The notes beneath the pieces are model-generated. The model was not told where the DNA came from. It made no database searches and saw only the letters and a list, made by a program, of their open reading frames with translations. A program made the translations under genes and the position numbers. From a virus (taxonomy: Duplodnaviria; Caudoviricetes), in the IMG/VR virus record IMGVR_UViG_3300009768_000006, positions 38,552 through 102,551 of that record: a stretch of 64,000 nucleotides of DNA. The stretch is one strand, 5' to 3'. How positions within the stretch are numbered: position 1 is the stretch's first letter; each line of letters starts with the position of its first letter. Positions 3,979 through 59,936 of this stretch are shown in pieces.

Positions 3979-4014
3979 TAAGGAGCGTATAGTATATTAG
4001 AATATCGAAAGGTA

Positions 4015-4740: not shown

Positions 4741-4783
4741 CTTGTATATTGTATTATAATTATGAAGTATAAACTAGGAGGAT

Positions 4784-8260: not shown

Positions 8261-8418
8261 TGAAAGAAATAAAAGACACTAGAACTGGAGCTATAATATT
8301 CAAGAAAGATGATAACGAATTAGCGATGGATAGATTACTAGAAGATATTAAGAATCTTAAACTTCGTATTGAAGCTCTAGAAAAGCTAGCAGCAGAAAAA
8401 ACAAGAAAAAAAGTTTAA
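8260..8418 (+). CDS. Small coiled-coil protein after DUF4815 gene (MKEIKDTRTGAIIFK...)
   Basis: Hand-translated 52-aa ORF; TAATG overlap with upstream stop. Confidence 0.6.
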   Translation: MKEIKDTRTGAIIFKKDDNELAMDRLLEDIKNLKLRIEALEKLAAEKTRKKV

Positions 8419-8445
8419 AAATTTTTAAAAAAATTTTAAAAACAG

Positions 8446-8472
8446 GCAGGTCTTTTATATCTTTTGGCGAAC
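8446..8472 (+). promoter_or_regulatory. Host SigH-like promoter with upstream A/T tracts
   Basis: GCAGGTCTT-N11-GGCGAAC resembles the SigH consensus RNAGGAWWW-N11/12-RNNGAAT; A/T tracts at 8405-8443. Confidence 0.45.
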
Positions 8473-8526
8473 TATATATAATGAAAGGGAAAAATTCCCT
8501 AAAGAATTAACAAAGGAGAATTAACT

Positions 8527-9531: not shown

Positions 9532-10233
9532 ATGTATGAAAATCTTAGTAAGCTTTTATCCTCACCTCTTATGAATCTAGATCATGTCTATAGATATAGT
9601 GGTATTAAACAACAAGAGATGGAATCTATAGCTATCCATACTTTTGAAGTTCAAATGCTAGGTACTATGATTATAGATACTCTCCAGAATTATCATAATG
9701 AGAAAGACCTAGATATTAATAAATTTCTTAATCTAGCTTTTCATCATGATTTAGAAGAAGCTATTACAGGTGATATACCTAGACCTCTTAAGTATCATGA
9801 TAGTAATATTCATGAATCTTTAAATTCTATAGCTGAGCTAGTAGCTAAGGATCTATTCAGAAATAACTTCTTGGATTGTTCTTCTCATTATAAATCTTGG
9901 TCAGATGCTAAATCAGGTAAAGAAGGTCTTATTGTAAAATTAGCTGATACTCTTACAGTAGTATCTAAGACTATAAAAGAAATAGAGTTACTAGGTAATA
10001 AGTATTTTCTTAAAGTAGCTCTAGAAGTAAGATATTACTTAAATGAATTGGCTAAGAATATAGCTTGTACTGAATTAGACTTCAATTATCATAGCAAAAT
10101 GTATATGAATGATCTACTTTTAGAAGCTTCTAATCATCTAGGAAATATACTTTCTAAATATAGTGAGATAATTGATACGTGTATAACTATTGATAATACT
10201 ATGATAAATAATAATAAAGGAGAATGTGAATGA
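9532..10233 (+). CDS. HD-domain 5'-deoxynucleotidase (YfbR/DatZ-like)
   Basis: RYSG...ESIAIH...HHDLEEAITGDIPRPLK...KLAD. Confidence 0.85.
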   Translation: MYENLSKLLSSPLMNLDHVYRYSGIKQQEMESIAIHTFEVQMLGTMIIDTLQNYHNEKDLDINKFLNLAFHHDLEEAITGDIPRPLKYHDSNIHESLNSIAELVAKDLFRNNFLDCSSHYKSWSDAKSGKEGLIVKLADTLTVVSKTIKEIELLGNKYFLKVALEVRYYLNELAKNIACTELDFNYHSKMYMNDLLLEASNHLGNILSKYSEIIDTCITIDNTMINNNKGECE

Positions 10234-10988
10234 CCAACATAACTATCTTTGAGCCTCATGGTGATGATGCTCTTATATCTTGCTATAAATTATTAAGATC
10301 GGAGGATAATAATAAGCACATAATCACTTTCTCTGACAGATCTTCTAATAAACTAGAGGATAGACCAGAATTACCTAATGTTACTACTCAATTCCTAAAT
10401 ATCCCTGATGTACATTATGACAATCGTATCAAGTATAATACCTATGAATTGAAAAGATTGCTAAGCTCTAATGTAGACATCTACAGTTCCTATATAAATG
10501 ACTCAGATAAATTCTATAGTAAAGATATAGGAATAGACTTCGTAGATAATTATAGTAGGCATAAAGCTGCTATAATGGAGAAACTGGATAATACTGATGT
10601 AATTTTACTACCTTTCGGATTATTCCATCCTAACCATTTCATGACCAGAGATGTATTGGAAAGATTAATCTACTCTATGGATCTACAAGATAAACTTCTA
10701 TACTACATAGACAAACCTTACATAGAGAAGAAATATGTACAATACATGTTGACTTCAGCTATGAATAATATGCATTATACGTCTAATACAGTATTAGACT
10801 ATGATAAAGAAGATCCTGAAATCAAACTAGACATATTCAGAGAATGCTATCCTACTGAACAAGGATTGCTTAGATACTCTAGAAATACAGTATTGAATAG
10901 TCCTGATATGATAGTAAGCACAATCATCAACAATACTAAAGTAAGAGTATTCTTAGATACACTTATGATAGAAGGAGTAAGATTGTAA
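10230..10988 (+). CDS. PIG-L/LmbE-family N-deacetylase-like protein
   Basis: FEPHGDD (PHxDD), HPNH (HxDH-like), YYIDKPY. Confidence 0.65.
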   Translation: MTNITIFEPHGDDALISCYKLLRSEDNNKHIITFSDRSSNKLEDRPELPNVTTQFLNIPDVHYDNRIKYNTYELKRLLSSNVDIYSSYINDSDKFYSKDIGIDFVDNYSRHKAAIMEKLDNTDVILLPFGLFHPNHFMTRDVLERLIYSMDLQDKLLYYIDKPYIEKKYVQYMLTSAMNNMHYTSNTVLDYDKEDPEIKLDIFRECYPTEQGLLRYSRNTVLNSPDMIVSTIINNTKVRVFLDTLMIEGVRL

Positions 10989-10989
10989 C

Positions 10990-12132
10990 ATGAAAGTATT
11001 ATACTTTTGCTACTTGAAAAGTGATCCTAAGCTATGGCCTACTCTAGGAGATATGAGAATGGCTGTAGAAATGAGTAGAGCTCTAGGAAATAACTATGGC
11101 ATAATCCTAGCAGGAGATTTTAGATCCTTTACTGCAGATGAAGCCTATGAGTTGTGTAGTTCATACAATGCTATAGATTATCTGGACCTAGGTGAGTATT
11201 GTGACAGTGCTAGGTACATTAGTAATTCCGCTAAATCTCTCAAGAATATCATAGATAACTATGATCTTATCCATGTTCATACATCTAAGTTAGGTGTCAT
11301 GAGTACTATAAGAAGATTATATCCTAATATTCCAATGGTTGTATCTTATCATAGTCCTCCTGAGACATCAGAAGTAGGTCATTTCTATAAAGATGATCTA
11401 CTGAAATTCCTCAATCAGTCTGATTTCAGATTCGTATGTAACAGTAAGTCTCATAAACAACGTATGATAAATACTCTAAATGTACCAGTGCATACTGTAA
11501 CTAGCTTAACCTATGCCTATAATGCAATTACTGATATATATAATGTAGATAATACTACTAAAATATATAATACTGGTACTATAGGTAGAATAACCTCTGT
11601 GAAACGGATGCTTGATTTGGTGAAGTATTTTAAGTATCTGTATGAGAGGACAGGTGTGCAGTCTTATTATGTAGGAGATATAGGTCCTTATGAAAAGTCT
11701 CCTGATGCTATCAAGTACTATGAAGACTGTAAATATTATCTAGAATCTCCTGCTATAGACTGGATAAAATTTGCTACTCCTATTGAAATAGGACATATAG
11801 TGAAACAAGCTTATACATATACTACATTCAGTCAAGTAGAAACGTTTGGATTGACTCTACTAGAAGCTGGATTATCAGGTATACCTAGTGTAGTATTTGA
11901 TGTAGCAGGACACGGTGAGATTATAGATACAGGATGCAATGGGTATAAATTGAGTATCCCAGACAAGAAACGTTATAAAATATCAGATCTTCATGGAGAT
12001 TTCTATCAACTTGATACTATGGCTAGGGAACTTGATCCAGTTAAAGTAAGAGAGTATACTAAGAATAAATTCAATATGGATAAACTCTATAAAGACTTCG
12101 ATAGGATATACAAGGAGGTATTAAATGGATAA
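10990..12132 (+). CDS. GT-B glycosyltransferase (GT4-like)
   Basis: DLIHVH, GRITSVKR, ETFGLTLLEAGLSGIP, GEII..G.NG. Confidence 0.9.
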   Translation: MKVLYFCYLKSDPKLWPTLGDMRMAVEMSRALGNNYGIILAGDFRSFTADEAYELCSSYNAIDYLDLGEYCDSARYISNSAKSLKNIIDNYDLIHVHTSKLGVMSTIRRLYPNIPMVVSYHSPPETSEVGHFYKDDLLKFLNQSDFRFVCNSKSHKQRMINTLNVPVHTVTSLTYAYNAITDIYNVDNTTKIYNTGTIGRITSVKRMLDLVKYFKYLYERTGVQSYYVGDIGPYEKSPDAIKYYEDCKYYLESPAIDWIKFATPIEIGHIVKQAYTYTTFSQVETFGLTLLEAGLSGIPSVVFDVAGHGEIIDTGCNGYKLSIPDKKRYKISDLHGDFYQLDTMARELDPVKVREYTKNKFNMDKLYKDFDRIYKEVLNG

Positions 12133-12814
12133 TTTAGTGCAACGAGACTACAATGAGCATCTCAGGATTAACTCTGAGAAATCTAATGTCATGGATGATA
12201 AGTATAAACTCTCTGACGATCCGTGGGGTAATGGTGCTAGAGACTTATACACAATACCTATGAGTAGAGTGGTTAGTCTCGTGAAGAATCATATAAGCTA
12301 TCAAGATAGCAAGAATAATATCACCTGGTTAGATATAGGATGTGGTGGTGGATTTGTAGGTAGAGCTATTCGAAAGGCTCTCGTAGAAAATAATATGAAT
12401 ATCTGTATGGAAGGCTACGATATTTCTGATACAGCTATAAATAGGCTTTATGATAATCCTTCTCATAATCCCTATGATATATTATCAGTAGTTGATATGG
12501 AAGAAGTGACTGATGGTAGTTGCTATAAGCATGCGACCATAGTATCATTAGTAGAAGTGCTCTATTACTTAGGTACTAAGAGACCTTGGAAGAAGTCTGT
12601 AGATATGCTATGGGATTCATTACCTATAGGAGCTATAGTGGTAGTAGCAGATGGTCTTATCCCTTATCAATATAGAGATTATCTGAAAACTAAAGCAGAT
12701 GCTTCTCTATTACACAGCTATACAGATCCTGATACAGTAGTGAGTGAGGAAACTACATCAGCTGGTAAAAAGTGGAAACGTAATCTAAAAGTACGTATCT
12801 ATCAAAAGGGCTAA
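12125..12814 (+). CDS. Class I SAM-dependent methyltransferase
   Basis: DDPWG, WLDIGCGGG, GYDISDTAI, EVLYYL (NodS-like pattern). Confidence 0.85.
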   Translation: MDNLVQRDYNEHLRINSEKSNVMDDKYKLSDDPWGNGARDLYTIPMSRVVSLVKNHISYQDSKNNITWLDIGCGGGFVGRAIRKALVENNMNICMEGYDISDTAINRLYDNPSHNPYDILSVVDMEEVTDGSCYKHATIVSLVEVLYYLGTKRPWKKSVDMLWDSLPIGAIVVVADGLIPYQYRDYLKTKADASLLHSYTDPDTVVSEETTSAGKKWKRNLKVRIYQKG

Positions 12815-17081: not shown

Positions 17082-17099
17082 CTCTTGAGGATTGAACGT
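17076..17099 (+). promoter_or_regulatory. Phage promoter motif P5
   Basis: GCCTAACT-N11-AACGT; its TAA is the gyrA stop. Confidence 0.8.
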
Positions 17100-17121
17100 T
17101 GTTTATGTTGAGGTGAGGAAA

Positions 17122-17964
17122 ATGTGCAAAGTATATTTAGCTTCTGGTTGGTTCGACGAAATTTCTATGAGAGACATCAATGTACTAGAAGATACATTGT
17201 TATCACTTCCTGTCGATGCTTACCTGCCTAGGATTCATGGGAAGCTACTGAATGCAGGAGAGAAGAATGATGCTTCAGTCCGCAAGTCTATATATGAAGA
17301 GAACATGAAACATATAGACGAAGCAGATATAGTAGTAGCCAATGTTAATTCTGCTGTGAAGTATTATGATCAAGGAACTATGTATGAGCTAGGATACGCA
17401 TTAGCTGAGAACAAGCACGTAATCTGCGTGAATCTCAATAAGAATCCACCTAAGTACGAGTCTATACACGTAAATACTGTATATAGCCTGCATGAGTTAA
17501 AGCAGGCTATCAGACGATATATTGAAAGAATTGACTATGATCGTAAAGGTACGATCTATTACATCAGCGATTCTTCTCTATATGAAGAACCAGATTATTT
17601 CGATAATATGTCTATACTTAAGTTGTTAGATTATTATGAGATTGTATGCCTGGATGAGAATATTAAATATGCTCAGTCAACTATAGCGAAGCTGAAACGG
17701 TTCACTAATAAAGATTTACTGTTCGCTGTGATAGATAATAGGCATCCTGTAGTATCAATGGCTATAGGAGCAGCAAAGTCTGTAGGGTTGCCTGTAGTAA
17801 CTTATACTAATCATGATTATGGAGTAAATGTCATGCTCCTCGAGTCCATTCACTCTCATATAAAAGGATCTGAAGAATTGGTGAAGTTCGTAGAAGCATT
17901 GAAATCAGAAGGAGGTATCAATAGTCTTGATAGGAGTGATACGAAGAATATTCGTACTTATTAA
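17122..17964 (+). CDS. Nucleoside 2-deoxyribosyltransferase-family protein, apparently two NDT-like domains
   Basis: KVYLASGWF, DEADIVVA, DQGTMYELGYA. Start moved to ATG 17122 (GAGGTGAGG RBS; TTG 17092 lies inside P5). Confidence 0.8.
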   Translation: MCKVYLASGWFDEISMRDINVLEDTLLSLPVDAYLPRIHGKLLNAGEKNDASVRKSIYEENMKHIDEADIVVANVNSAVKYYDQGTMYELGYALAENKHVICVNLNKNPPKYESIHVNTVYSLHELKQAIRRYIERIDYDRKGTIYYISDSSLYEEPDYFDNMSILKLLDYYEIVCLDENIKYAQSTIAKLKRFTNKDLLFAVIDNRHPVVSMAIGAAKSVGLPVVTYTNHDYGVNVMLLESIHSHIKGSEELVKFVEALKSEGGINSLDRSDTKNIRTY

Positions 17965-20918: not shown

Positions 20919-21968
20919 ATGAGAGATGATTACAAGATATTAGTAGAGAGTAAACTCACTCCTGTAGGTATTAATGGTGATGATGTAATCTACAGATGTC
21001 CTGTATGTGAAGCTGTAAAAGGATCTGGTCATCTTCAGGTAAATTATAAAATAAATAAATATAATTGCTTTAAGTGTGATGTAGGAGGTTCTGATATAAA
21101 GAATCTACTGCACTTACTTAAAGTAGACGTGAGCATGGATTATGATGCTCTTTACAGTAGTTATGAGAAGAAATTAGACAATATCATATCATCTAAGTCA
21201 GCTAAGAAGCAGGTAACTACAATAAAAGATTATAGTAGAGATCTTAAGGTACTAACGTCCTATTATGATCAGCATACAAAACCATTAACTCCTGTAGCTA
21301 GGAGTTATTTAATATCTAGAGGATTAACTGATGATATAATAATGAAGCTACGAATATCTGAAGGAGTGAATAGATATAACGAGATTATTAAGATAAATAA
21401 TAAAGAATATCTAGGTAGAGATTATAGTGGTAGAGTGATGGTACCTTCTATATACGAAGATAATACTATATCATTCTTCGTAGGTAGGGATTACACAAAT
21501 ACTAAAAATAATAAGTATCTTAATCCTCCTAAGGATCTAGCATTCTCCTCTGAAGATGTATACAATTTGAACTTAGTAGAATCTAATTCAGTTATTATAT
21601 GTGAAGGTGTATTTACAGCTATAACTGTGATAGCAGGTTCAGGTAAAATAAATGCTGTAGCTACCTATGGTAAATCTATAAGCAGTAAATCTAACTCAAA
21701 TGAATCGGTAACTAGTCAAGGTGAGAAATTACTAGCTAGAAAGTTCCATACATATTATATAGCTTATGATGCAGATGCAATGAAGAATTCTATAGAGTCT
21801 GCTAAATATCTTAATGATAGAGGAGCTAATGTTAAAGTAGTACTAATTGATCCTCTAGTTTATGGAGCGAAAGCTGATATAAATGATATAGGTTATCAAG
21901 AATTCGTAAAACTTCTAAATAATTCGTTAACTTATGATAAGTACATTAGGCTAACTTTACTGAATTGA
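20919..21968 (+). CDS. DNA primase (Zn finger + TOPRIM)
   Basis: CPVC...CFKC, YLISRG, KYLNP, ICEGVF, AYDAD, DIND. Confidence 0.9.
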   Translation: MRDDYKILVESKLTPVGINGDDVIYRCPVCEAVKGSGHLQVNYKINKYNCFKCDVGGSDIKNLLHLLKVDVSMDYDALYSSYEKKLDNIISSKSAKKQVTTIKDYSRDLKVLTSYYDQHTKPLTPVARSYLISRGLTDDIIMKLRISEGVNRYNEIIKINNKEYLGRDYSGRVMVPSIYEDNTISFFVGRDYTNTKNNKYLNPPKDLAFSSEDVYNLNLVESNSVIICEGVFTAITVIAGSGKINAVATYGKSISSKSNSNESVTSQGEKLLARKFHTYYIAYDADAMKNSIESAKYLNDRGANVKVVLIDPLVYGAKADINDIGYQEFVKLLNNSLTYDKYIRLTLLN

Positions 21969-21972
21969 ACGT
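21949..21972 (+). promoter_or_regulatory. Phage promoter motif P7
   Basis: GGCTAACT-N11-AACGT upstream of luxS. Confidence 0.8.
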
Positions 21973-22009: not shown

Positions 22010-22495
22010 ATGATAATGAGTTTCTCGGTGGACCATACAAAATTAGTACCAGGACTCTATCTTTCAGAGAAGATAGGTAACATCTCTATCTGGGATATCA
22101 GGATGGTGGCTCCTTCATCTAAGAAGAAGCTCACAGGTCCTGTAGTTCACACTTTGGAGCACCTCCTAGCATTCTATATTAGATTGCATTTAGGAGAGAA
22201 GAAAGTCATAGGGTTGTATCCTATGGGATGCAAAACAGGATTCTATCTGGTTACTAAAAGAGCTAGTAAACATCAAGTATTGGAAGCGATGAAAGATGTC
22301 TTCCATATATTCTATACGAATGCTCAAGGGAGTTGGGAGGATAGAAATATTATAGCTATCCCTGGAGCTACAGAGAAAAGTTGTGGGAATCCTAACTACC
22401 ACAATCTTCCTGAAGCTCTGAAAGAAGCAGCTAAGTACTATGATAAGCTGTATATGCTGTACACTGTAGATATGGACTATGATAACTTAGTATAA
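22010..22495 (+). CDS. luxS: S-ribosylhomocysteine lyase LuxS
   Basis: SFSVDHTKL, DIR, HTLEH, PMGCKTGFY, IPGA...CGN..YH. Start reassigned to ATG 22010 (GGAGG RBS). Confidence 0.92.
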   Translation: MIMSFSVDHTKLVPGLYLSEKIGNISIWDIRMVAPSSKKKLTGPVVHTLEHLLAFYIRLHLGEKKVIGLYPMGCKTGFYLVTKRASKHQVLEAMKDVFHIFYTNAQGSWEDRNIIAIPGATEKSCGNPNYHNLPEALKEAAKYYDKLYMLYTVDMDYDNLV

Positions 22496-22510: not shown

Positions 22511-23560
22511 ATGAAGAGTGATAGGTTGGTACAAGGTAATTTTACAGGTCCTATAAGACCTACAGCTAAAATCATAAGTCATACTAGTTATCCTATCGGT
22601 ACTTTGTATACTGTATGGACAGGTACTAGATATGGTAGATGTCTGGATCCTAAGGTAGTTCAGGAGATTTATGATGGTAATTGGACAGAGGATCGCAGGG
22701 ACGAAGTTGAATTCATCTGTAAATGCTATCCTGAGTATACTGGTAGTTGGACTAGTAGGAAGACGCAGGCTTCCTCTGTGATTCTAGCGATTGCTCAGAA
22801 AGTCATAGAGTCAAATGTTCCTGCAGGAGAAGCGGTTCATCTTAATATCCAGATAGACAATGCTAGTGTTGCATGGCGTGAGCAGCTAGTCAGAGGTAGG
22901 ATATCTCAACAATTCTGGACTATGTCTACTAGGATCATGGACATGACGTCTATGGATGTGAACATGAATGATAGCATAAATCTTATCGGTGGTGAAGAAG
23001 CTGTAAAAATTTATGAGGATACTGTTCAGACTATCAGAGATGCTTATACTAAACTGATTGACCTAGGTATCCCTGTAGAGGATATCAGACTGCAACCTCA
23101 GAATCATGTTCATAGAGTGTACTGGATGGTTCCTCTACGTACGTTGGTAACTATTCTGAATAAACGTAGTGACTGGATCGCACAAGGATCTCTTTGGACT
23201 CCTATTGTATCCAGTATCATCTTAGCTCTAAGACAGATAGGGCTTTACAATGTTATAGCTCCGTTCATAGGGAAGCCTATGGTTGAGTTCTCAAAGGATC
23301 CTGAAGGGAACTATTTTGTTTCTAAATATATAATGGAAGCAGATAATGAAGATAGGTATAGTGGGAGAGATAAACTTCCATGTGATCCTCTATGGCTAGC
23401 ATACAGACATAAAACGATGCCAGCTCATACTAACATAGAGCATTATGATTATCTGAAGTCTGTCTACATGAATATTTGGTCTGATGAATATTTGGAAATA
23501 CTAGGATGGGATAGGGAGAATCCTGAGCAGTTAGGTTACTACGATAGACCTCAGGCATAA
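22511..23560 (+). CDS. Divergent ThyX-like (FAD-dependent thymidylate synthase family) protein
   Basis: REQLVRGR-X8-STR versus canonical RHR-X7-SxR; LGIPVEDIR resembles GxxxEDAR. Confidence 0.6.
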   Translation: MKSDRLVQGNFTGPIRPTAKIISHTSYPIGTLYTVWTGTRYGRCLDPKVVQEIYDGNWTEDRRDEVEFICKCYPEYTGSWTSRKTQASSVILAIAQKVIESNVPAGEAVHLNIQIDNASVAWREQLVRGRISQQFWTMSTRIMDMTSMDVNMNDSINLIGGEEAVKIYEDTVQTIRDAYTKLIDLGIPVEDIRLQPQNHVHRVYWMVPLRTLVTILNKRSDWIAQGSLWTPIVSSIILALRQIGLYNVIAPFIGKPMVEFSKDPEGNYFVSKYIMEADNEDRYSGRDKLPCDPLWLAYRHKTMPAHTNIEHYDYLKSVYMNIWSDEYLEILGWDRENPEQLGYYDRPQA

Positions 23561-23572
23561 CAAAAGATAGGA

Positions 23573-24196
23573 GTGTTCTTACAAATGAGCAAGTTTATAG
23601 GGATATCAGGTCCTACATGTACTTACAAAAGTACTATACATGCCTTATTGAAGAAAGTACTGCCTACGGATCCTAAAATAGTATACCTGGATGATATCCA
23701 TGATACTGTATGGAATAACTTGGTAAAGAGTGGTGTATTCTTTAACTATCAAGAACTGACTAGCGATAGAGATTACTTACTCATGTACATATCCAAGCTG
23801 ATAGATTACTATGCTAGTCAGATAGAGAAATACAAATACACTGATAACATTGTAATCATGGATGGGTGTATCGTAGACATATTAGTCTACAGTATGTTGA
23901 ATACCTGGTATCATTATCCAGTGAAAGAGTATACAGAGAAACTGATGGAAAAACTACTGAAGTATATGGATTACATAGACAATGTATTCATCACTATTCC
24001 TGATAAGAATAACGAAGAGAAACTTCAGTACAGCAGAAGAGCTCAACAAACTGCATTTAAGAAGAACAGGCCTCTAGAATGTTCATACTACAACATAGCT
24101 GGAGGTTTGCGTATATGTACGAAGCTTACATCAGACATAGTAAGTAATGCTAATATTATAAAAGAAAAAGTGCTAGAGTATGTAGCCTTACTGTGA
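23573..24196 (+). CDS. P-loop nucleoside/nucleotide kinase-like protein
   Basis: GISGPTCTYKST, IMDGCIVD. Confidence 0.55.
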   Translation: MFLQMSKFIGISGPTCTYKSTIHALLKKVLPTDPKIVYLDDIHDTVWNNLVKSGVFFNYQELTSDRDYLLMYISKLIDYYASQIEKYKYTDNIVIMDGCIVDILVYSMLNTWYHYPVKEYTEKLMEKLLKYMDYIDNVFITIPDKNNEEKLQYSRRAQQTAFKKNRPLECSYYNIAGGLRICTKLTSDIVSNANIIKEKVLEYVALL

Positions 24197-24208
24197 GCAT
24201 CATAACGT
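24185..24208 (+). promoter_or_regulatory. Phage promoter motif P8
   Basis: GCCTTACT-N11-AACGT. Confidence 0.7.
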
Positions 24209-24232
24209 TCTATATAATGGAGGTGATTACAC

Positions 24233-24958
24233 ATGCTCATAATAGATTCCATGGATAAACTACTAAACCACATAATAACAAATTGTTTTGAATATGACGG
24301 AATAGTAGTAGAAGGCTATGATTGTGTAGGTAAAGGTAGAGTACTAACTGATATAGCCTATGGATTAAATACTACTGTATATAGACCTGATTATACTGTA
24401 TGGACTCCTGAATTCTTAGGGAAAGAGGAAAGATGGAAGCTATCAGCTTACTATTTGGATATATGTTCTAAGCTTCATATTCCTAGAAAATCATTGAATA
24501 TCCAGGAATTCAGGAATAATCCTATAGACATATTTGATAGAGGAGTATTGTCAGGATATGTTTATAACCATGTAGATATAAGAAAATTCTACAAGGAGAT
24601 ATTAAGAGACTACAGACTACTTCATGTGATAGTGACCTGTGATGAATATAGTTTCTTCAAATACTTAGAATCTAGAAATAATAATATCACTGAGCAGCAG
24701 AAGCATGAGGAATTATTTAAATTAGCAGTTTACACTGAGTCATATGTTAATATTGCGAAGGAATTAGACCTATTAGCTTGTGTCTATATTAACAGTTATG
24801 ATCAATGCAAAGATAATTCTAATACTTGTGAAGGCTGTGGGCATTATAGCTATGGTGTATGTAAGAATCCTAGAAGTGATTATTATAACAATACAGTTAA
24901 TGATAATTTGAGCAGATGTAAAGTATCTAATGACGAGGAGATACAAGATGTACAATAA
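24233..24958 (+). CDS. dNMP kinase-like protein with C-terminal Cys cluster
   Basis: VVEGYDCVGK, IFDRG..SGYVY; CEGC...C...C tail. Confidence 0.6.
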   Translation: MLIIDSMDKLLNHIITNCFEYDGIVVEGYDCVGKGRVLTDIAYGLNTTVYRPDYTVWTPEFLGKEERWKLSAYYLDICSKLHIPRKSLNIQEFRNNPIDIFDRGVLSGYVYNHVDIRKFYKEILRDYRLLHVIVTCDEYSFFKYLESRNNNITEQQKHEELFKLAVYTESYVNIAKELDLLACVYINSYDQCKDNSNTCEGCGHYSYGVCKNPRSDYYNNTVNDNLSRCKVSNDEEIQDVQ

Positions 24959-27872
24959 ATGTGACCTTTGTAATTATAGTCAAGGAGCTTTTCATCAGAT
25001 TGAGCCTATAGGGAACTGCCAAGATGATGAGTGTGAGCTCCTGATTATAGGAGATTATCCTAAGGCTGAAGATGATGCTTCAGGATATCCATTGTCAAAT
25101 AGTAATCTTCAATTTTATTGGGAATTACTAAATGATCTTAAAGTAAAATATAAAGTAGTGTATGCTATGAAATGCATACCTATAGATTATAGAAATCGTA
25201 GGTATATGAAACCTACTATAAGTGACTTCGATACATGCATAAGGAATAACCTCGTAAATTATATAGTTAAAGTAGCTCCTGAGTGTATCCTGACATTAGG
25301 ACAGTTGGCTTTAGAAATTATGCTTGGCGAGGGTAAGAAGATAGGAGATTACAGAGAAAGAGCTGCTACGATTAGGATTCCTAATAAATCAGTGAAACTT
25401 ATCTCTACTTATAGCCCTTCTTATGCAGTTGATAATGAATCTACTATGTTCATGGATAGAGTTATAGAAGATACTGTGTATGCTAGCAGACATGCTATGG
25501 CTTACAGATATAAGGATACATATAAAACTATAACTTTAGATGCTATTGAATACTCTAAACTAGTAGATACTTTATTGTTAGATGATAGTGTAGAGTATAT
25601 TAGCTTCGATACAGAATCCAATGGACTTAATCCTCTAGTTCCTGGAGCAAAGATAACTTCTTTCTCTATATCCTATAACTATAATGTAGGTTACAATATA
25701 TTCTGCTATCATCCTGAGCTTGATATAAGTGATGAAGATAGACGTATTATTATAGAAGCATCAAAGAAGCTACTGACAAGTAAAAAAGTTATAGCTCATC
25801 ATATAAAGCATGAGTATCGATATGTTAAAGTATTGTGGGGATTCACTCCTAATCTAGTAGAAGATACAATGTATATGTCCTACTCATTGTTTATGTCAAA
25901 AGTAGGAGTAAGTAATGGATTAAAATATCTGGCTGGTAGATTCTTGCAGATGCCTCCGTGGGAAGAATACATAAATAGATATGTTGATCTATTCGATATG
26001 CTAAAGAAACTTAAGACTCTCGATGATGATAAAATAGCTAGATATAAAGATGTATACAATGACCTACAATTCACTAATGAAGAAGTTTATAAATGGTATA
26101 GTATATTGAAAGATCCTGATTATTATATTAGGCAAGTGGACTCTGAAGATGCTGATATATTCATGTGGATGATACCTGTGAGAGTATTAGAGAAATATGC
26201 TGGTATGGATGCTATAGCTCCTCTCATGCTTAAGGATGTCTTATTGCCTATGATAGAGTCTGATCCAGCTTTGTTAGAATCTTATAGGAGAGTAGTTAAA
26301 GGTGGAGGAGTATTTGCAAACATAGAGTTAAGAGGTATCAGGATCGAAGGTATAGATAGATGGACTACTATATATGAAGAGAAGATAGCTGAGCATTATG
26401 AGAAACTCAGATCTTATGATGAAGTATTAGCACTAGAATCTGAAGAAGGAGCTGTTTATAATCCTAATTCTAGTAAGCAGAATTCTAAGTTGTTCTTCGA
26501 TTATTTCAAGTTGCCTGTTATAGATAGTACATCATCTGGTAATCCTAGTACTAATGAAAATACATTGATAACTCTTATAAAGCAGTACAGAGAAAAATCA
26601 GATGAAAAGTCTGCTCGGGTATTGTCATTCCTGGAGAATTTCAGAGATTACAAGAAACTGTCTAAGATACATTCTACTTATTTCATAGGCCTTAGGAGAT
26701 TCATGCATGAGAATGATGCATTCGATGGTCATACTAACACTTATGTACCTAGTCCTAATGGAGTCCATGAGTTACATCTGCATCCACAATACTTGCTACA
26801 TGGGACTGAGACTGGTAGACTGTCTTCTAGTAATCCATCTATGCATGTAATACCTTTTAGATCAGATGTGAAGTCTATATTAGTTCCTCATGATCATAAA
26901 AGAGGAGGATTGTTCGTATCTGCTGACCAATCACAGCTAGAAATTAGAGTACTAGCATGTATCGTTGAGAAATTCTATGGAGATCCAAGTCTAGCTAATG
27001 CTTATAGAGAAGGTAGAGACATTCATCGATATAATGCGTCAAAGATTTTCTCTAAACCTGAAGAAGAAGTAGTAGATGCAGAACGTAGATTTGCTAAGAC
27101 TATCAGTTTCTCATTATTATACGGTAGTACAGAATATACTGTATCAGAGAATACAGGAAGGACTGTAGAGGAGTGCGCTCAACTTTTCAACCAGTTCTTT
27201 GAAGCTTTTCCGGGTGTAAAACTTTACATAGAAGATATGCATAAGTATGCATCTACTTATGGATGTGTCCGCACTCCATTTGGCAGGATAAGACATCTAG
27301 AGAACGCATTGCATCCTGAAGTACGTAGTAAGTATGAAGCATCTAAGAGACAAGCTCAGAATACTGTTATACAATCTACTGGTAGCGATATGTCACTCGT
27401 ATCTATAAACTACATGGATGATCATTTAATAGAGAAAAATTACAAATCAGCTGTAATAGCTTTCGTTCATGACTCCATAACTATAGATACTCATCCTGGA
27501 GAGTTATTTGAAATGATCGATCTACTCAAGTATTCTATGAAGACTCTGCTAGAGATGCTACCATGGGTAACTTGTCCGTTAGGAGTAGATATAGATATAA
27601 CAGATAATATGGCAGATCATTGTGGATTAAAGAGTATGGAGATCCTAGAAGATGGTTCTAGGATATTAGTATTAGATGGATATGACTATGAAGTAGCTGC
27701 AGTCATTAATGAAATGCGTGTAGCATATGAAATAATTAGCGAAGAATTATTATCAGAGAAGGAATTCTTCGAGAGTCCTGGAGATCTTGTAGCTAGAAAA
27801 GCAATTAATCTAGGATTCGATAATAAGACTTTTATAGAGCAGAAGAAGAAGATACACTTGAGAAAGAAATGA
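24948..27872 (+). CDS. polA: Family A DNA polymerase with N-terminal UDG family-4-like domain and 3'-5' exonuclease
   Basis: CDLC...IGDYP..EDD.SG.P (UDG4-like); SFDTES; TGRLSS; DQSQLEIR; AKTISFSLLYG; QSTGSD; VHDS. Confidence 0.92.
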   Translation: MYNKCDLCNYSQGAFHQIEPIGNCQDDECELLIIGDYPKAEDDASGYPLSNSNLQFYWELLNDLKVKYKVVYAMKCIPIDYRNRRYMKPTISDFDTCIRNNLVNYIVKVAPECILTLGQLALEIMLGEGKKIGDYRERAATIRIPNKSVKLISTYSPSYAVDNESTMFMDRVIEDTVYASRHAMAYRYKDTYKTITLDAIEYSKLVDTLLLDDSVEYISFDTESNGLNPLVPGAKITSFSISYNYNVGYNIFCYHPELDISDEDRRIIIEASKKLLTSKKVIAHHIKHEYRYVKVLWGFTPNLVEDTMYMSYSLFMSKVGVSNGLKYLAGRFLQMPPWEEYINRYVDLFDMLKKLKTLDDDKIARYKDVYNDLQFTNEEVYKWYSILKDPDYYIRQVDSEDADIFMWMIPVRVLEKYAGMDAIAPLMLKDVLLPMIESDPALLESYRRVVKGGGVFANIELRGIRIEGIDRWTTIYEEKIAEHYEKLRSYDEVLALESEEGAVYNPNSSKQNSKLFFDYFKLPVIDSTSSGNPSTNENTLITLIKQYREKSDEKSARVLSFLENFRDYKKLSKIHSTYFIGLRRFMHENDAFDGHTNTYVPSPNGVHELHLHPQYLLHGTETGRLSSSNPSMHVIPFRSDVKSILVPHDHKRGGLFVSADQSQLEIRVLACIVEKFYGDPSLANAYREGRDIHRYNASKIFSKPEEEVVDAERRFAKTISFSLLYGSTEYTVSENTGRTVEECAQLFNQFFEAFPGVKLYIEDMHKYASTYGCVRTPFGRIRHLENALHPEVRSKYEASKRQAQNTVIQSTGSDMSLVSINYMDDHLIEKNYKSAVIAFVHDSITIDTHPGELFEMIDLLKYSMKTLLEMLPWVTCPLGVDIDITDNMADHCGLKSMEILEDGSRILVLDGYDYEVAAVINEMRVAYEIISEELLSEKEFFESPGDLVARKAINLGFDNKTFIEQKKKIHLRKK

Positions 27873-27876
27873 TTGT

Positions 27877-28386
27877 ATGGATATTAGAGTAGAGGATCAT
27901 TTCAAGTTGGTGCATCATGTACTGCATAAGAAGTTCTACTACAAGTCTAAAGAAGACTATGAGGATTTATTTCAAGTAGGATGTATAGGATTACTGAAAG
28001 CTACCAGGACTTTTGATGAATCTAAAGCTATTAAGTTTTCTACGTATGCAGCTATGTGTATATATAATGAACTCCTCTGTTATCTAAGACCTAGCAAGAA
28101 TGAGATAAAGTGTGTATCTATATATGCAGATATATCAGAAGATGGATCTAACAATCTACTAGATTCTATAGCTGATACCAGTGATGATATAGTATATTCA
28201 TATGTATGTGATGGATTCCTAGAAATCTATAATAAACTATCTCCTCGGGATCAATCTATAATACATATGAGACTACTTGATAATTATACTAATAGAGAGA
28301 TAAGTAAGAAATATAATCTTTCACATACTACTGTTTCTAGAGTGCTAGCAGCTTTCAAGAAAGCTATGATGGACTATGTTAGTTAA
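27877..28386 (+). CDS. RNA polymerase sigma factor, sporulation (SigF/G/E/K)-like
   Basis: EDLFQVGCIGLLKA..FD...KFSTYA; region 4 TNREIS...SHTTVSR. Confidence 0.88.
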   Translation: MDIRVEDHFKLVHHVLHKKFYYKSKEDYEDLFQVGCIGLLKATRTFDESKAIKFSTYAAMCIYNELLCYLRPSKNEIKCVSIYADISEDGSNNLLDSIADTSDDIVYSYVCDGFLEIYNKLSPRDQSIIHMRLLDNYTNREISKKYNLSHTTVSRVLAAFKKAMMDYVS

Positions 28387-41340: not shown

Positions 41341-41760
41341 ATGGTAAAATTTAGTAAGCTGGATCCAAATGCTGTAATTCCTGTCAGAAAGACTTTATTA
41401 GCTGCAGGATATGACATGAGTGCTAATGAGTGCTACATTATCCTTCCTCATGCTATAGCTTTAGTAGGAACAGGGATAACCGCTACACTAGAAGATGATC
41501 AGTGGATAGATCTTCGAATCAGGAGTAGTCTAGCATTATCAGGGTTAATGCTCATGAATGGAGCAGGCGTTGTAGATGCTGATTATGCAGGTAATGAGAT
41601 AAAATTTATGCTATATAACGCTTCAGATAAGCCAGTTGCTATAGAAGCATATCAAAGGATAGGACAAGCTATCATCAGCACTTATCATAAAGTAGATGAT
41701 GATCATCTATATCAAGCAGATGTTCGCATTAGTGGATTTGGGAGCACAGGAGATAAATAA
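41341..41760 (+). CDS. dut: dUTPase (trimeric)
   Basis: AAGYD, RSSLA, GVVDADY, RIGQ, R.SGFGSTG. Confidence 0.95.
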   Translation: MVKFSKLDPNAVIPVRKTLLAAGYDMSANECYIILPHAIALVGTGITATLEDDQWIDLRIRSSLALSGLMLMNGAGVVDADYAGNEIKFMLYNASDKPVAIEAYQRIGQAIISTYHKVDDDHLYQADVRISGFGSTGDK

Positions 41761-57869: not shown

Positions 57870-58118
57870 TACGCGTGTATATGTATGATAGTATAAGTAA
57901 TAAATCCTGGATAGGATCTAGAAGATATAATCATATAAACTATTCGTCATATGATCTTCTAGTAATGTACTACGTACTTATACTAGAGAGATCATCTGCC
58001 GTAATTAAGATTATAACTAACTATATGATATTAACTATGATTAACTATAATAACTATACAATAATCTATTTAATATTATCGCTTATATGTGCATATGATG
58101 TGTACATGCACGTGCGCG
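57870..58118. other. Origin-like element: nested inverted repeats, 5 x TAACTA, purine-pyrimidine tracts
   Basis: See corresponding finding; intergenic upstream of nrdD. Confidence 0.4.
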
Positions 58119-58136
58119 AGAGAAAGTTGGTATGAC

Positions 58137-59936
58137 ATGTTTGAAAGATCTATTCAGGATTCCAAAACCAGTAAAGATATAATTGATTCTTACATTTTCG
58201 ATAAGGATTGGAGAGTCAAAGAAAGTAGCAGTGCTACAAAAAGTATAGGAGCATTAGGTAAATACATTATTAGTGAAGTTACAAAGGATTACTGGCTCAG
58301 AGAAGTATACAATAAAACAGATGATAGAATAGCGAGAGCTCATAGACAAGGTTTCATGCATATACATGATCTAGGAGGATTAACATTATACTGCTGCGGA
58401 TACAGTCTTAAGAATATACTACTGAAAGGAGTTAGAGGGATCCCTAATATTCCTAAGTCTGGTCCTGCTAAGCATTTCATGAGTGTATTGAACCAGATTA
58501 TAAATCTAACATCTATTTATCAGAATGAAATTATGGGAGCAGTAGCCTTCTCTAGTGTAGATGTTTTACTTGCTCCATTCATAAAAGTAGATGGTCTATC
58601 ATATGATGAAGTTAAGCAACATCTACAGAACTTTATATATTCTATCAATAGTAATAGTAGAGCAGGAGCAGAACCTGCTTTCACTAACATAACACTAGAT
58701 ATAACTCCTGATAGAACTATGCTAAATAAACATGTCATAATAGGAGGTAGAGAACAGGAATTTACTTATAAGGATTGTCAACGTGAGATAGATATGTTCA
58801 ATAGAGCATTCTGTGAGCTGATGATCCATGGTGATACTGAAGGTAATCCATTTGCTTATCCTATTCCTACATATAACATCCATGATAGATTTGATTGGGA
58901 TAATCCTAATAATAATTTAATGTGGGAAATGTCAGGTAAGTATGGATATCCTTACTTCGCTAACTTCATAAATAGTGATCTATCTATGGAAGAGAGTAGA
59001 AGCATGTGTTGCCGATTGAGGCTAGACATGAGAGAACTCTCTAAAAGATATGGAGGTCTATTTGGATCAGGAGATAGTACAGGTTCTATAGGAGTAGTAA
59101 CTCTGAATCTACCTAGATTGGCATACTTAGCTGCTAAGGAACAGGATAGTAAAGCCAAGTTCTATGAATTATTAGATCATTATATGGATCTAGCAAAGAC
59201 TAGTCTACTAGTAAAACGTGATTTCATCAAGAAGAATGTATTGGATGCTAATCTACTACCGGCTTATGAATATTATGTAGGTACATTAGATAACCATTTC
59301 AATACAATAGGTCTAATAGGCATGAATGAGATGTGTATGAATTTGCTAGGTATAGATATTAGAGAGCCTGCAGCTAAGGAATTCTGCTTAGAAGTACTAG
59401 ATCATATGAGAGATAGACTATCTGATTATCAAGAAGAGACTAAGCAGCTATTTAACTTAGAAGCTACTCCTGCTGAGAGTACAGCATATAGATTAGCTAA
59501 GTTGGATGTAGAAGAGTTCTCTGACATATATGCTCAAGGAAGTAAAGAAGCTCCTTATTACACTAACTCATGTCATATTCCTGTGAAAAATGTTACTACA
59601 TTAAAGGATCTATTCGATCACCAGAATGAGTTGCAACAAAAATTCACAGGAGGTACTGTAGTACACTGCTATCTAGAAGGTCCTATCACAGGATTACAAG
59701 CTAAGAAGATAGTCAAGTCTGTATGTGAGAATTATAAAGTTCCTTATATAAGTTTATCTCCTCTGAATACTATATGTCCAGAGCATGGTCTATTACTTCG
59801 TTCGTCAGATTATTGTCCTACATGTGGAAGAGAGACAGATAAGTATCAACGAATCACAGGATATATAAGGAATGTTAAATACTGGAATCCTGGTAAAGTG
59901 TCTGAATACACGGATAGGCATCAGTTGAAAGCATAG
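58137..59936 (+). CDS. nrdD: Anaerobic (class III) ribonucleoside-triphosphate reductase
   Basis: HIHDL, YCCG, RSMCCRL, TPAES, YYTNS, CPEHG...CPTCG, RITGY glycyl-radical motif. Confidence 0.95.
   Translation: MFERSIQDSKTSKDIIDSYIFDKDWRVKESSSATKSIGALGKYIISEVTKDYWLREVYNKTDDRIARAHRQGFMHIHDLGGLTLYCCGYSLKNILLKGVRGIPNIPKSGPAKHFMSVLNQIINLTSIYQNEIMGAVAFSSVDVLLAPFIKVDGLSYDEVKQHLQNFIYSINSNSRAGAEPAFTNITLDITPDRTMLNKHVIIGGREQEFTYKDCQREIDMFNRAFCELMIHGDTEGNPFAYPIPTYNIHDRFDWDNPNNNLMWEMSGKYGYPYFANFINSDLSMEESRSMCCRLRLDMRELSKRYGGLFGSGDSTGSIGVVTLNLPRLAYLAAKEQDSKAKFYELLDHYMDLAKTSLLVKRDFIKKNVLDANLLPAYEYYVGTLDNHFNTIGLIGMNEMCMNLLGIDIREPAAKEFCLEVLDHMRDRLSDYQEETKQLFNLEATPAESTAYRLAKLDVEEFSDIYAQGSKEAPYYTNSCHIPVKNVTTLKDLFDHQNELQQKFTGGTVVHCYLEGPITGLQAKKIVKSVCENYKVPYISLSPLNTICPEHGLLLRSSDYCPTCGRETDKYQRITGYIRNVKYWNPGKVSEYTDRHQLKA

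What the first reader, a model, noticed from the sequence alone, without database searches (positions are those of the whole stretch)
22511..27872. Divergent ThyX, two kinases and UDG-PolA: precursor arm for a non-canonical nucleotide
Seen: the ThyX signature is altered to RGR-X8-STR with extra sequence; two different P-loop kinases follow; PolA has DQSQ in motif A (usually DYSQ) and a UDG-like domain. Known: thymidylate-synthase homolog + dedicated kinase + adapted polymerase is the layout of base-substituting phages (hmU in SPO1, hmC in T4). Inference: the ThyX-like enzyme may make a methyl/hydroxymethyl dUMP or dCMP derivative that the 9.5-12.8 kb operon then decorates.
Basis: inference. 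Interest (0 to 1): 0.7.

Follow-up and report, generated by a model that had tools for sequence, protein, structure and literature searches.

The report
Phage ThyX-like nucleotide-modification gene arm
An uncultured 102-kb phage carries a phage-only, strongly altered relative of the flavin thymidylate synthase ThyX, followed by two nucleotide kinases and a repair-coupled DNA polymerase; its helper genes otherwise occur almost only in phages with heavily modified thymine, so it probably makes a replacement for thymidine, though the product is unknown.

Summary
Window 22511-27872 encodes a 349-aa ThyX-fold protein with RGR-x8-STR in place of RHR-x7-SxR. It is followed by two divergent Tmk/dNK-type P-loop kinases and a 980-aa UDG-exonuclease-PolA with DQSQLE in motif A.

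- **ThyX-like family:** it is large (165 clusters at 90% identity) and seen only on viral or metagenomic contigs. It is absent from 185,579 species genomes and falls far below NCBI's thyX cut-off. It keeps the dUMP-binding arginines and loses His53, His79, Asn85, Glu86 and Tyr91.
- **Cultured relatives:** the only cultured carrier is Listeria phage LIS04, an SP-15 relative that also has a ThyA.
- **Co-occurring genes:** every record holding the enzyme also holds a tandem NDT-like protein (among 50,697 phage records: SP-15 and LIS04 only). Each also holds a YfbR-like HD nucleotidase, found in 23 of those records, mostly SP-15, YerA41, Carin-5 and their kin.
- **Side issues:** LuxS is a lineage-specific insertion. 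DQSQ is only a clade signature.

My odds are about 0.55 for a pool-level arm making a 5-substituted dUMP and about 0.3 for plain dTMP supply.

The parts
21951..21972 (+). Phage promoter-like motif CTAACT-N11-AACGT, ahead of luxS, the ThyX-like gene and kinase 1
   Evidence: 24 matches with up to 1 mismatch against 0.97 expected, 22 of them on the + strand at gene boundaries. This copy is exact and lies at the end of the primase gene.
22010..22495 (+). LuxS homologue. It is co-transcribed with the arm but is a lineage-specific insertion, not a core part
   Evidence: Pfam LuxS E 2.9e-35. An RBS GGAGG precedes the ATG at 22010. In L004 and L005 the primase gene abuts the ThyX-like gene directly. 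The LuxS family is found in 0 of 4 related records.
22511..23560 (+). ThyX-fold protein P0001 (349 aa), member of a phage-only divergent subfamily. The signature RGRISQQFWTMSTR lies at 22892-22933
23573..24196 (+). Kinase 1 (P0002), a dNK/AAA_28/Tmk-like P-loop nucleoside or nucleotide kinase. The probable start is the ATG at 23585
   Evidence: Syntenic homologues occur in L004 (37% identity) and L005 (31%).
24187..24208 (+). Second promoter-like motif (1 mismatch), ahead of kinase 2 and the polymerase
24233..24958 (+). Kinase 2 (P0003), Tmk/dNK-like, with an invariant C-terminal Cys/His cluster
   Evidence: It shares at least 12 contigs with the ThyX-like protein, judged by identical longest-contig lengths.
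24930..27872 (+). UDG-like domain, 3'-5' exonuclease and family A DNA polymerase (980 aa). Motif A DQSQLEIR lies at 26925-26948, and about 85 aa follow the Pfam PolA match
17092..17964 (+). Tandem NDT-like protein. The N-terminal domain keeps the catalytic Glu (GTMYELGYA); the C-terminal domain is a degenerate second NDT-like domain. It accompanies the ThyX-like gene in every record
9532..10233 (+). YfbR-like HD 5'-deoxynucleotidase, first gene of the sugar operon. It is a marker shared with SP-15-type phages
10230..12814 (+). Decoration genes: a 252-aa protein, a GT4/GT1 glycosyltransferase and a SAM methyltransferase. This is the presumed post-replicative arm, outside the finding
Evidence: Pfam. 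A GT homologue is present in G003 only.
41341..41760 (+). dUTPase, the likely source of dUMP
58089..59936 (+). Anaerobic ribonucleoside-triphosphate reductase NrdD, which would supply dUTP and other dNTPs

Best explanation
These four genes are the nucleotide-pool arm of a thymidine-replacement system of the SP-15 / SPO1 kind, built on a ThyX fold instead of a ThyA fold.

Proposed flow:
1. NrdD and the dUTPase give dUMP.
2. The ThyX-like flavoenzyme binds dUMP through its conserved arginine tetrad and adds a carbon substituent at C5. Because its flavin/folate-side residues are remodelled, the product is not plain dTMP. My first guess is 5-hydroxymethyl-dUMP, formed by water capture of the exocyclic-methylene intermediate. 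A longer hydroxyalkyl group is the alternative.
3. The Tmk-like kinase 2, and perhaps kinase 1, make the diphosphate. Host NDP kinase makes the triphosphate.
4. The UDG-exo-PolA inserts it opposite A, while its N-terminal domain guards against or handles uracil.
5. The HD 5'-deoxynucleotidase, the tandem NDT-like enzyme and the dNK-like kinase 1 form a nucleoside-level shunt. This shunt removes or recycles canonical thymidine nucleotides.
6. The GT4 / deacetylase / methyltransferase operon decorates the new hydroxyl after replication.

Shown here: folds, families, residue conservation, synteny and co-occurrence. Inferred: every chemical step, the product, and the presence of any modified base in the virion DNA.
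For: (a) ThyX fold with the substrate site kept. Z 14-15 to ThyX structures. Equivalents of T. maritima Q75, R78, R90, E144, R147, R165 and R174 are invariant in 26 of 26 members.

(b) It does not behave like a standard ThyX.
- NCBIfam thyX scores 26.7 bits against a cut-off of 87.9.
- His53 becomes N/D/S. His79 becomes G/S/N. Asn85 becomes W/F. Glu86 becomes T/V/L/M. Tyr91 becomes I/T/V/P.
- About 130 extra residues are strongly conserved, with 53 invariant columns.

(c) Phage-only distribution. 165 clusters were found, many on 90-140 kb contigs. None was found in 185,579 species genomes. One of 50,697 phage records holds it, LIS04, which also has a full ThyA.

(d) Obligate companions.
- The tandem NDT-like gene is present in the window, G001, G002, G003, LIS04 and L012. 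Otherwise it occurs only in SP-15.
- The YfbR-like HD is present in all five related records at 36-44% identity. It occurs in 23 phage records, dominated by SP-15, LIS04, YerA41, Carin-5 and RHph_TM30-type phages. PMC13697223 and PMC12686479 describe these phages as T-hypermodified or as SP15-like polymerase carriers.

(e) YerA41 has the same tool set side by side: HD, UDG-PolA, dNK, glycosyltransferase and CE4 esterase. GXN1 has its HD behind two glycosyltransferases.

(f) The genome has no ThyA-type hydroxymethylase and no TET/JBP. If its DNA is glycosylated on a pyrimidine, this enzyme is the only candidate source of the hydroxyl.

(g) The order ThyX-like, kinase 1, kinase 2, polymerase is conserved in L004 and L005/L010.

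(h) DHPU of SP-15 is made before DNA synthesis (PMC5977210).
Against: - No chemistry was tested, and no DNA composition data exist for this phage or for LIS04.
- The ThyX-like gene is the only thymidylate-synthase homologue in this genome and in the complete relative G001. That is what a plain, fast-evolving dTMP synthase would look like.
- Two of the three residues mutated in the folate-site structures, E144 and R174, are conserved. Methylene-THF chemistry may therefore be intact.
- No ThyX-family hydroxymethylase is known (my own knowledge).
- SP-15's own second Thy1 protein, gp130, is barely similar to this family. The tie to DHPU runs through LIS04, whose DNA has not been analysed.
- Phages with ordinary DNA also carry Tmk, dNK and nucleotidases, T5 and T4 for example (my own knowledge).
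- The genome assembled from a metagenome to a DTR-bounded contig, unlike YerA41 and Carin-5, whose DNA resisted sequencing (PMC12686479).
- Kinase 1 has a damaged Walker A in this phage.
Confidence: 0.55

Rival explanations
1. Ordinary nucleotide supply. The ThyX-like protein is a fast-evolving phage thymidylate synthase that makes dTMP. The kinases are a thymidylate kinase and a deoxynucleoside kinase for normal salvage. The polymerase is an SPO1-type replicase, and the phage DNA carries normal thymine. Any glycosylation genes act elsewhere or on another base.
For: - It is the sole thymidylate-synthase homologue in G000 and in the complete G001.
- The ThyX fold is kept and all dUMP-binding arginines, plus E144 and R174, are conserved.
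- Many phages carry long 'ThyX-like' proteins of 300-370 aa.
- The genome was sequenced and assembled without trouble.
Against: - The protein fails the thyX equivalog by 60 bits.
- His53, His79, Asn85, Glu86 and Tyr91 are all replaced.
- The family is absent from cellular genomes.
- LIS04 keeps it beside a full ThyA.
- It is always linked to a tandem NDT-like gene and an HD gene that are otherwise confined to SP-15-type, T-hypermodified phages.
Confidence: 0.3
2. Pentose-derived side chain, a special case of the main reading. The ThyX-like enzyme uses reduced flavin to couple an aldehyde, rather than methylene-THF, to C5 of dUMP. The aldehyde would be 2-deoxyribose or its 5-phosphate, released by the HD nucleotidase and the tandem NDT-like hydrolase. 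The product is a 5-(polyhydroxypentyl)-dUMP, the long-sought type of route to SP-15's dihydroxypentyluracil.
For: - The ThyX-like, NDT-like and HD genes are strictly linked, and directly adjacent in L012.
- The NDT-like gene is restricted to SP-15 and LIS04 among isolates.
- ThyX can take free formaldehyde through a flavin N5 adduct (titles of PDB 7NDW and 7NDZ).
- His53 and Tyr91 are lost.
- A FabG-like reductase sits beside gp130 in SP-15.
Against: - The idea is purely inferential. The 1978 paper could not be read.
- E144 and R174 of the folate site are conserved.
- SP-15 gp130 is not a member of this subfamily.
- No precedent exists for such a reaction.
- Extra deoxygenation steps would be needed, and no reductase is evident in the window.
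Confidence: 0.08
3. One or both kinases act after replication, on a hydroxyl of the modified base in DNA, as 5-hmdU DNA kinases do in M6, ViI, SP10 and PhiW-14. They would activate the hydroxyl for group transfer rather than phosphorylate free nucleotides.
For: - 5-HMUDKs are P-loop kinases encoded near hypermodification genes (PMC8989533).
- SP-15-type side chains carry a phosphate (PMC5977210).
- Two kinases are more than a one-step dNMP-to-dNDP need.
Against: - tblastn of P0002 and P0003 finds none of the phages that encode 5-HMUDKs, even at E 0.01.
- Both resemble Tmk and dNK, which are small-molecule kinases.
- No aGPT-Pplase-type transferase was noticed in the Pfam scans.
Confidence: 0.07

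Closest known systems
Thymine hypermodification of SP-15-type phages (SP-15, LIS04, YerA41, Carin-5; PMC5977210, PMC12686479, PMC13697223)
   Same: - YfbR-like HD nucleotidase at 36-44% identity.
- Tandem NDT-like protein, in SP-15 and LIS04.
- ThyX-like protein at 43% identity, in LIS04.
- UDG-fused PolA, NAD-dependent ligase, dNK-type kinase and glycosyltransferases close by.
- In SP-15 the side chain is built at the nucleotide level.
   Different: - The polymerase is 980 aa, without the large inserts of the SP15-like subfamily, and aligns to LIS04 only over residues 567-888.
- Motif A is DQSQ rather than DFSQ.
- SP-15's gp130 is not in this ThyX subfamily.
- The sugar genes differ: a GT homologue is found in G003 only.
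- The two kinases have no homologue in any isolate.
- The genome is half the size.
5-hydroxymethyluracil pathway of SPO1-type Bacillus phages, and the hmC pathway of T4
   Same: The logic is the same: a pyrimidine C5-modifying thymidylate-synthase homologue, a dNMP kinase, dUTPase and clearing enzymes, and the phage's own polymerase (UDG-fused in SPO1-like phages, PMC13697223), with glycosylation after replication in T4. SPO1-like and SP-10 polymerases are the best full-length matches of P0004, at 25-27% identity.
   Different: Those hydroxymethylases are ThyA-fold enzymes that work through an active-site cysteine. Here the fold is ThyX, which is flavin-dependent, and no ThyA homologue exists in the genome.
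Flavin-dependent thymidylate synthase ThyX (T. maritima TM0449, M. tuberculosis ThyX)
   Same: The fold matches at Z 14-15. The dUMP-binding arginines, Q75, E144 and S88 are kept, with S88 as S or T.
   Different: - There is no His in the RHR motif.
- His53, Asn85, Glu86 and Tyr91 are replaced.
- About 130 extra conserved residues are present.
- The protein scores 26.7 bits against a cut-off of 87.9 on the thyX equivalog.
- The family is phage-only.
PolB, the ThyX-like UMP/dUMP C5-methylase of polyoxin biosynthesis (PDB 4P5A, 4P5B)
   Same: It is a ThyX-fold enzyme recruited to a specialised pathway, with a comparable structural match (Z 12.7-13.5).
   Different: PolB still methylates and keeps standard motifs (my own knowledge). 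There is no sequence relationship beyond the fold (12% identity).

Membership tests
ThyX (FAD-dependent thymidylate synthase, PF02511 / TIGR02170) | ThyX fold | tested here: met
   AF2 model with pLDDT 89. Foldseek E 1.9e-08 to Mtb and Tm ThyX. VIA Z 14-15, rmsd 2.6-2.9, about 200 residues aligned.
ThyX (FAD-dependent thymidylate synthase, PF02511 / TIGR02170) | Signature RHR-x7-S-x-R | tested here: not met
   The window has RGR-x8-S-T-R. The family has R-[GSN]-[RK] with x7 or x8, and no member has the His.
ThyX (FAD-dependent thymidylate synthase, PF02511 / TIGR02170) | dUMP-binding residues (Tm Q75, R78, S88, R90, R147, R174) | tested here: met
   The profile alignment to TM0449 with column counts: Q, R, R, R and R are 26 of 26; S88 is S in 20 and T in 6.
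ThyX (FAD-dependent thymidylate synthase, PF02511 / TIGR02170) | Folate/flavin-side residues (Tm H53, H79, N85, E86, Y91, E144) | tested here: not met
   Only E144 is kept. H53 becomes N/D/S, H79 G/S/N, N85 W/F, E86 T/V/L/M, and Y91 I/T/V/P. The roles of these residues are taken from PDB mutant titles and from memory.
ThyX (FAD-dependent thymidylate synthase, PF02511 / TIGR02170) | Score above the curated family cut-off | tested here: inconclusive
   Pfam Thy1 scores 48.5 bits against a cut-off of 24.8, but only over profile positions 54-171. The NCBIfam thyX equivalog scores 26.7 bits against a cut-off of 87.9.
ThyX (FAD-dependent thymidylate synthase, PF02511 / TIGR02170) | Makes dTMP from dUMP, CH2-THF and NADPH; binds FAD; homotetramer | not testable with these tools
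   This needs enzyme assays or thyA complementation.
Thymidylate kinase / deoxynucleoside kinase superfamily (PF02223, PF01712) | P-loop, DR(Y/H)-type motif and NMP-kinase fold, for kinase 2 (P0003) | tested here: inconclusive
   VEGYDxVGKG and DRG are invariant. P0003 itself has no Pfam hit. Of 17 relatives, 7 hit dNK and 5 hit Tmk, with best E 4e-06. The PDB profile hit to vaccinia Tmk has E 0.07. The best folds are dTMP kinases, at E 7e-04 and TM about 0.4.
Thymidylate kinase / deoxynucleoside kinase superfamily (PF02223, PF01712) | Walker A and dNK/AAA_28 fold, for kinase 1 (P0002) | tested here: inconclusive
   AAA_28 scores 28.9 bits against a cut-off of 27. dTMP kinase scores 24.3 bits against 83.25. 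Atlas structural neighbours are dNK and AAA_28 families, TM 0.73-0.84. Walker A reads GxxxxYKS here and GxxxxGKT in L004 and L005.
5-hmdU DNA kinase (5-HMUDK) | Sequence similarity to M6 gp54, ViI gp67, SP10 gp186 and their kin | tested here: inconclusive
   tblastn of P0002 and P0003 against 50,697 phage records, which include those phages, gave no such match at E 0.01. No profile comparison was made.
UDG-fused family A polymerases of T-modified phages (SPO1-like / SP15-like; PMC13697223) | N-terminal UDG-fold domain + 3'-5' exonuclease + PolA | tested here: met
   PF03167 at 36.2 bits, PF01612 at 25.4 bits and PF00476 at 235 bits.
UDG-fused family A polymerases of T-modified phages (SPO1-like / SP15-like; PMC13697223) | Catalytic UDG motifs (GE... 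and ..HP..) | tested here: not met
   The window has IIGDYPK and TYSPSY. L004 has GDFPK and TYHPSY. SP-15 has GEAPG and TYHPAY. YerA41's motifs also deviate (VLIGY, MYSL), yet it is reported active (PMC13697223), so activity remains open.
UDG-fused family A polymerases of T-modified phages (SPO1-like / SP15-like; PMC13697223) | SP15-like subfamily: over 1000 aa with Insert 1, Insert 2 and a C-terminal domain | tested here: not met
   The protein is 980 aa. tblastn aligns it to the LIS04 polymerase only over residues 567-888. About 85 aa follow the PolA match, but no similarity to the SP15-like C-terminal domain was detected.
Nucleoside 2-deoxyribosyltransferase / DNPH1 superfamily (PF05014) | Catalytic Glu motif, and an N-terminal YLAxPFF-type (nucleoside) rather than GSIRGG-type (nucleotide) motif | tested here: met
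   PF05014 E 9e-19. GTMYELGYA aligns to the Glu motif of both NDTs and DNPH1. The N-terminus KVYLASGWF aligns to NDTs 7O62 and 6EVS from residue 11, whereas DNPH1 aligns only from residue 59. The second domain lacks the Glu.

The most novel reading that the evidence does not exclude
This phage-only ThyX subfamily would be the first flavin-dependent enzyme that installs something other than a methyl group on dUMP. In the boldest form it reductively couples a deoxyribose-derived aldehyde, supplied by the always-linked HD nucleotidase and tandem NDT-like hydrolase, to C5 of dUMP. That would give the pentyl-diol type side chain whose origin in SP-15 has been unknown since the 1970s. It would also mean that a large clade of uncultured ~100-kb phages, probably of anaerobic Firmicutes, carries such DNA.
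Probability: 0.1. Interest if true: 0.9.

Novelty: new variant of a known kind. Interest (0 to 1): 0.62.

Why it matters
Thymine-replacing phages are known. Every characterised route starts from a ThyA-fold hydroxymethylase or a TET/JBP oxygenase. The route to the long C5 linkers of SP-15, YerA41 and Carin-5 is still unsolved (PMC12686479, PMC13697223).

This work defines three linked gene families: a ThyX-like enzyme, a tandem NDT-like protein and a YfbR-like HD nucleotidase. They tie a large, uncultured phage clade to that group. LIS04_124 and LIS04_121 are testable candidates in a cultured phage.

If the enzyme makes a non-methyl product, that would extend ThyX chemistry and give new tools for making modified DNA. 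It would also flag many metagenomic phage genomes as carrying DNA that resists restriction and possibly some sequencing chemistries. If it only makes dTMP, the finding reduces to an unusually divergent thymidylate synthase.

Tried and rejected
**LuxS as C5 donor.** LuxS makes 4,5-dihydroxy-2,3-pentanedione, which recalls the dihydroxypentyl side chain. I rejected it as a core part.
- LuxS is absent from L004, L005 and L010, where the primase gene abuts the ThyX-like gene.
- It is absent from 4 of 4 related records, and tblastn finds none in LIS04 or SP-15.
- It fits better with MetK and the Pfs-like gene (note e1-5959156).

**SP-15 gp130 as an orthologue of P0001.**
- It is not supported by sequence: BLASTP E 0.07, hhalign probability 1.4%.
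- Only the gene position and a W-x-x-S-x-R-T motif are shared.

**DQSQ as a sign of an adapted polymerase.** It is only a clade signature.

**Searches that gave little.**
- DNA-level similarity to known phages: none.
- Single-sequence PDB searches with the kinases: nothing.
- hhalign of both kinases against the YerA41 dNK: no relationship beyond the P-loop.
- The word-indexed search for the NDT-like protein found only 3 proteins. The exhaustive search was needed.
- PHROGs has no family for the ThyX-like protein or the kinases.
- IMG/VR and JGI scans gave only 3 and 7 loci.

**Tools and papers not available.**
So there was no read-level look at modified bases and no sample origin.
- The two Walker & Mandel 1978 papers are not held.

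**Not run.** I did not run complex prediction, because a homodimer pass would not separate the rival readings.

Full report
**Setting.** The window is bases 38552-102551 of a 102,551-bp IMG/VR virus record with a 95-bp direct terminal repeat. Almost all genes lie on the + strand. From 9.5 kb onward the gene order is as follows.
- A YfbR-like HD nucleotidase, a 252-aa protein, a GT4 glycosyltransferase and a methyltransferase.
- Topoisomerase II B and A, then a tandem NDT-like protein.
- A helicase, DnaB and a primase.
- LuxS, the ThyX-like protein, kinase 1, kinase 2 and the UDG-exo-PolA.
- A sigma factor, then NAD-dependent ligase, gp32-like SSB, RecA, FEN, SbcCD and dUTPase.
- Further on, MetK, a Pfs-like nucleosidase and NrdD.

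A motif CTAACT-N11-AACGT occurs 24 times against about 1 expected. One copy lies before luxS and one before kinase 2. The finding therefore spans two early or middle transcription units.

**Observation.** Three refinements apply.
- The x8 spacing belongs to the closest subclade. Most members have x7, and the motif is R-[GS]-[RK]...W-x-x-[ST]-x-R.
- Kinase 1 has a Gly-to-Tyr change in Walker A in this phage only.
- The UDG motifs deviate (GDYPK, TYSPSY), while L004 keeps the His.

**The ThyX-like protein.** An AF2 model from 26 homologues (pLDDT 89) matches ThyX structures only. The roughly 200 fold residues are spread over residues 11-325, so about 130 residues are insertions.

A profile alignment to T. 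maritima ThyX, combined with column counts, gives the following.
- Q75, R78, R90, E144, R147, R165 and R174 are invariant. S88 is S or T.
- H53, H79, N85, E86 and Y91 are never conserved. N85 is Trp in 24 of 26 members.
- The arginines argue for a uracil mononucleotide substrate, not dCMP.
- The flavin/folate face is remodelled, though E144 and R174, which were mutated in the folate-site structures listed, remain.

The protein reaches only 26.7 bits on NCBI's thyX equivalog, whose cut-off is 87.9.

The family is large. It has 165 clusters at 90% identity, many on 90-140 kb contigs. It was not found in any of 185,579 species genomes. It occurs in one of 50,697 phage records, Listeria phage LIS04 (43% identity). 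High conservation (53 invariant columns) rules out a decaying gene.

**Context is the main evidence.**
- LIS04 is classified with SP-15, the phage whose DNA carries glucosylated, phosphoglucuronylated 5-(4',5'-dihydroxypentyl)uracil made at the nucleotide level (PMC5977210).
- LIS04 also has a complete ThyA. Its ThyX-like gene is therefore unlikely to be a mere duplicate function.
- In LIS04 and SP-15 the Thy1-fold gene follows an NDT-like gene. SP-15's gp130 is, however, hardly similar to the family.

*The tandem NDT-like protein (17092-17964).*
- It is homologous over its full length to SP15_127 (26%, E 8e-23) and to LIS04_121.
- Among all phage records it is found only in those two phages.
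- It forms a small family of about 25-30 full-length representatives among 1.84 billion proteins.
- It is present in every record that holds the ThyX-like gene: the window, G001 (complete), G002, G003, LIS04, and the small contig L012. In L012 the order is NDT-like, YfbR-like HD, ThyX-like.
- Its N-terminal motif and alignments resemble nucleoside deoxyribosyltransferases rather than the nucleotide hydrolase DNPH1.

*The HD nucleotidase (9532-10233).*
- It is 36-44% identical to proteins in all five related records.
- It has homologues in 23 phage records. These are SP-15, LIS04, YerA41 and its twin GN1, Carin-5, eight RHph_TM30-type rhizobiophages, HSE3, GXN1 and a few others.
- SP-15, YerA41 and Carin-5 are experimentally T-hypermodified. 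LIS04 and RHph_TM30 are listed among the SP15-like polymerase carriers (PMC13697223, PMC12686479).
- In YerA41 the HD gene directly precedes the UDG-PolA. A dNK, a glycosyltransferase, two SDRs and a CE4 esterase follow.
- In GXN1 the HD gene follows two glycosyltransferases.

The window's set is HD, deacetylase-like protein, GT4, methyltransferase, dNK-like kinase, Tmk-like kinase, UDG-PolA and NAD ligase. It is the same kind of tool kit.

**The kinases and polymerase.** Both kinases belong to the Tmk/dNK class. Neither has a homologue in any isolate. They are conserved in the closest subclade only, next to the ThyX-like gene (and contig-length matches). Kinase 2 carries an invariant Cys/His tail.

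The polymerase is nearest to SPO1-, SP-10- and LysYB1-type UDG-PolAs, at 25-27% identity. It lacks the inserts of the SP15-like subfamily. DQSQ is shared by the clade, whereas SP-15 and LIS04 have DFSQ, so it carries no weight.

**Reading.** I put about 0.55 on a pool-level arm that makes a 5-substituted dUMP. Within that, hydroxymethyl is the first guess and a longer hydroxyalkyl the second. The arm would carry the nucleotide to the polymerase, with HD, NDT and dNK as a nucleoside-level shunt and the GT operon decorating afterwards.

No ThyA-type hydroxymethylase or TET/JBP enzyme exists in the genome. If a pyrimidine hydroxyl is glycosylated, this enzyme must provide it.

I put about 0.3 on plain dTMP synthesis. 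The gene is the only thymidylate-synthase homologue here and in G001, and the substrate site and part of the folate site are intact.

Two minor rivals remain. One is DNA-level kinases. The other is a pentose-aldehyde coupling, which would explain the NDT and HD linkage and the 1978 ribose-label title but has no direct support.

**LuxS.** The luxS gene sits between the promoter and the ThyX-like gene only in this phage.

**Novelty and limits.** Thymine-replacement arms are known. A ThyX-fold, phage-only enzyme at their head, tied to a tandem NDT-like protein and an SP-15-type HD nucleotidase, has not been described in the papers I could search.

All function is inferred. No DNA chemistry exists for any carrier. 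Neighbourhood look-ups and read mapping were unavailable. The scan had already noted the same arrangement in another genome (e1-5840526).

Noticed in passing
window 22010-22495, 54614-55741, 57083-57688, 12125-12814, 50575-51123: The phage encodes LuxS, MetK and a Pfs-like nucleosidase together with two SAM methyltransferases. This is a full SAM-use and SAH-clearing set. LuxS is missing from four related records.
   Followed up: partly
window 23573-24196; L004 11153-11761; L005 11060-11704: Kinase 1 has Walker A GPTCTYKST in this phage but the canonical GPSxTGKT in both relatives. The copy here may be weakened or altered.
   Followed up: partly
window 24233-24958 (residues 198-229): The kinase 2 family has an invariant C-terminal cluster (C199, C202, H204, C210, C229) that looks like a zinc knuckle. 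This is unusual for Tmk/dNK kinases. The model is of low confidence there (pLDDT 52-73).
   Followed up: partly
L005/L010 12398-16000: The polymerase gene of this relative is interrupted. The ORF ends at 14674, while motif A lies at 15944 in another frame, which suggests an intein, an intron or a homing-endonuclease insertion. SP-15's polymerase is annotated with an intron endonuclease.
   Followed up: no
LIS04 (OQ999172.1) 97566-98126; GXN1 (PQ819873.1) 42678-42956: Two unannotated genes in public records. LIS04 has an HD nucleotidase homologue (43% identity). GXN1 has a stretch similar to kinase 2, right behind its HD gene and two glycosyltransferases.
   Followed up: partly
window 9282-62350: The motif CTAACT-N11-AACGT occurs 24 times (about 1 expected), 22 of them on the + strand at gene boundaries of the replication and nucleotide genes. 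It is a likely phage promoter, perhaps read with the sigma factor at 27877-28386.
   Followed up: partly
window 27-2027: A CotH-kinase-like domain is fused to a LamG/concanavalin-like domain, within the tail and lysis module beside a GH25-SH3 lysin and a DUF4815 protein.
   Followed up: no
L003 (G001) 961-9158: The complete 142-kb relative has a PolX thumb protein, a UvrD helicase, a sugar-1-phosphate nucleotidyltransferase, a 745-aa unknown protein and an HD protein just upstream of its ThyX-like gene. That layout is closer to the SP15-like one.
   Followed up: partly
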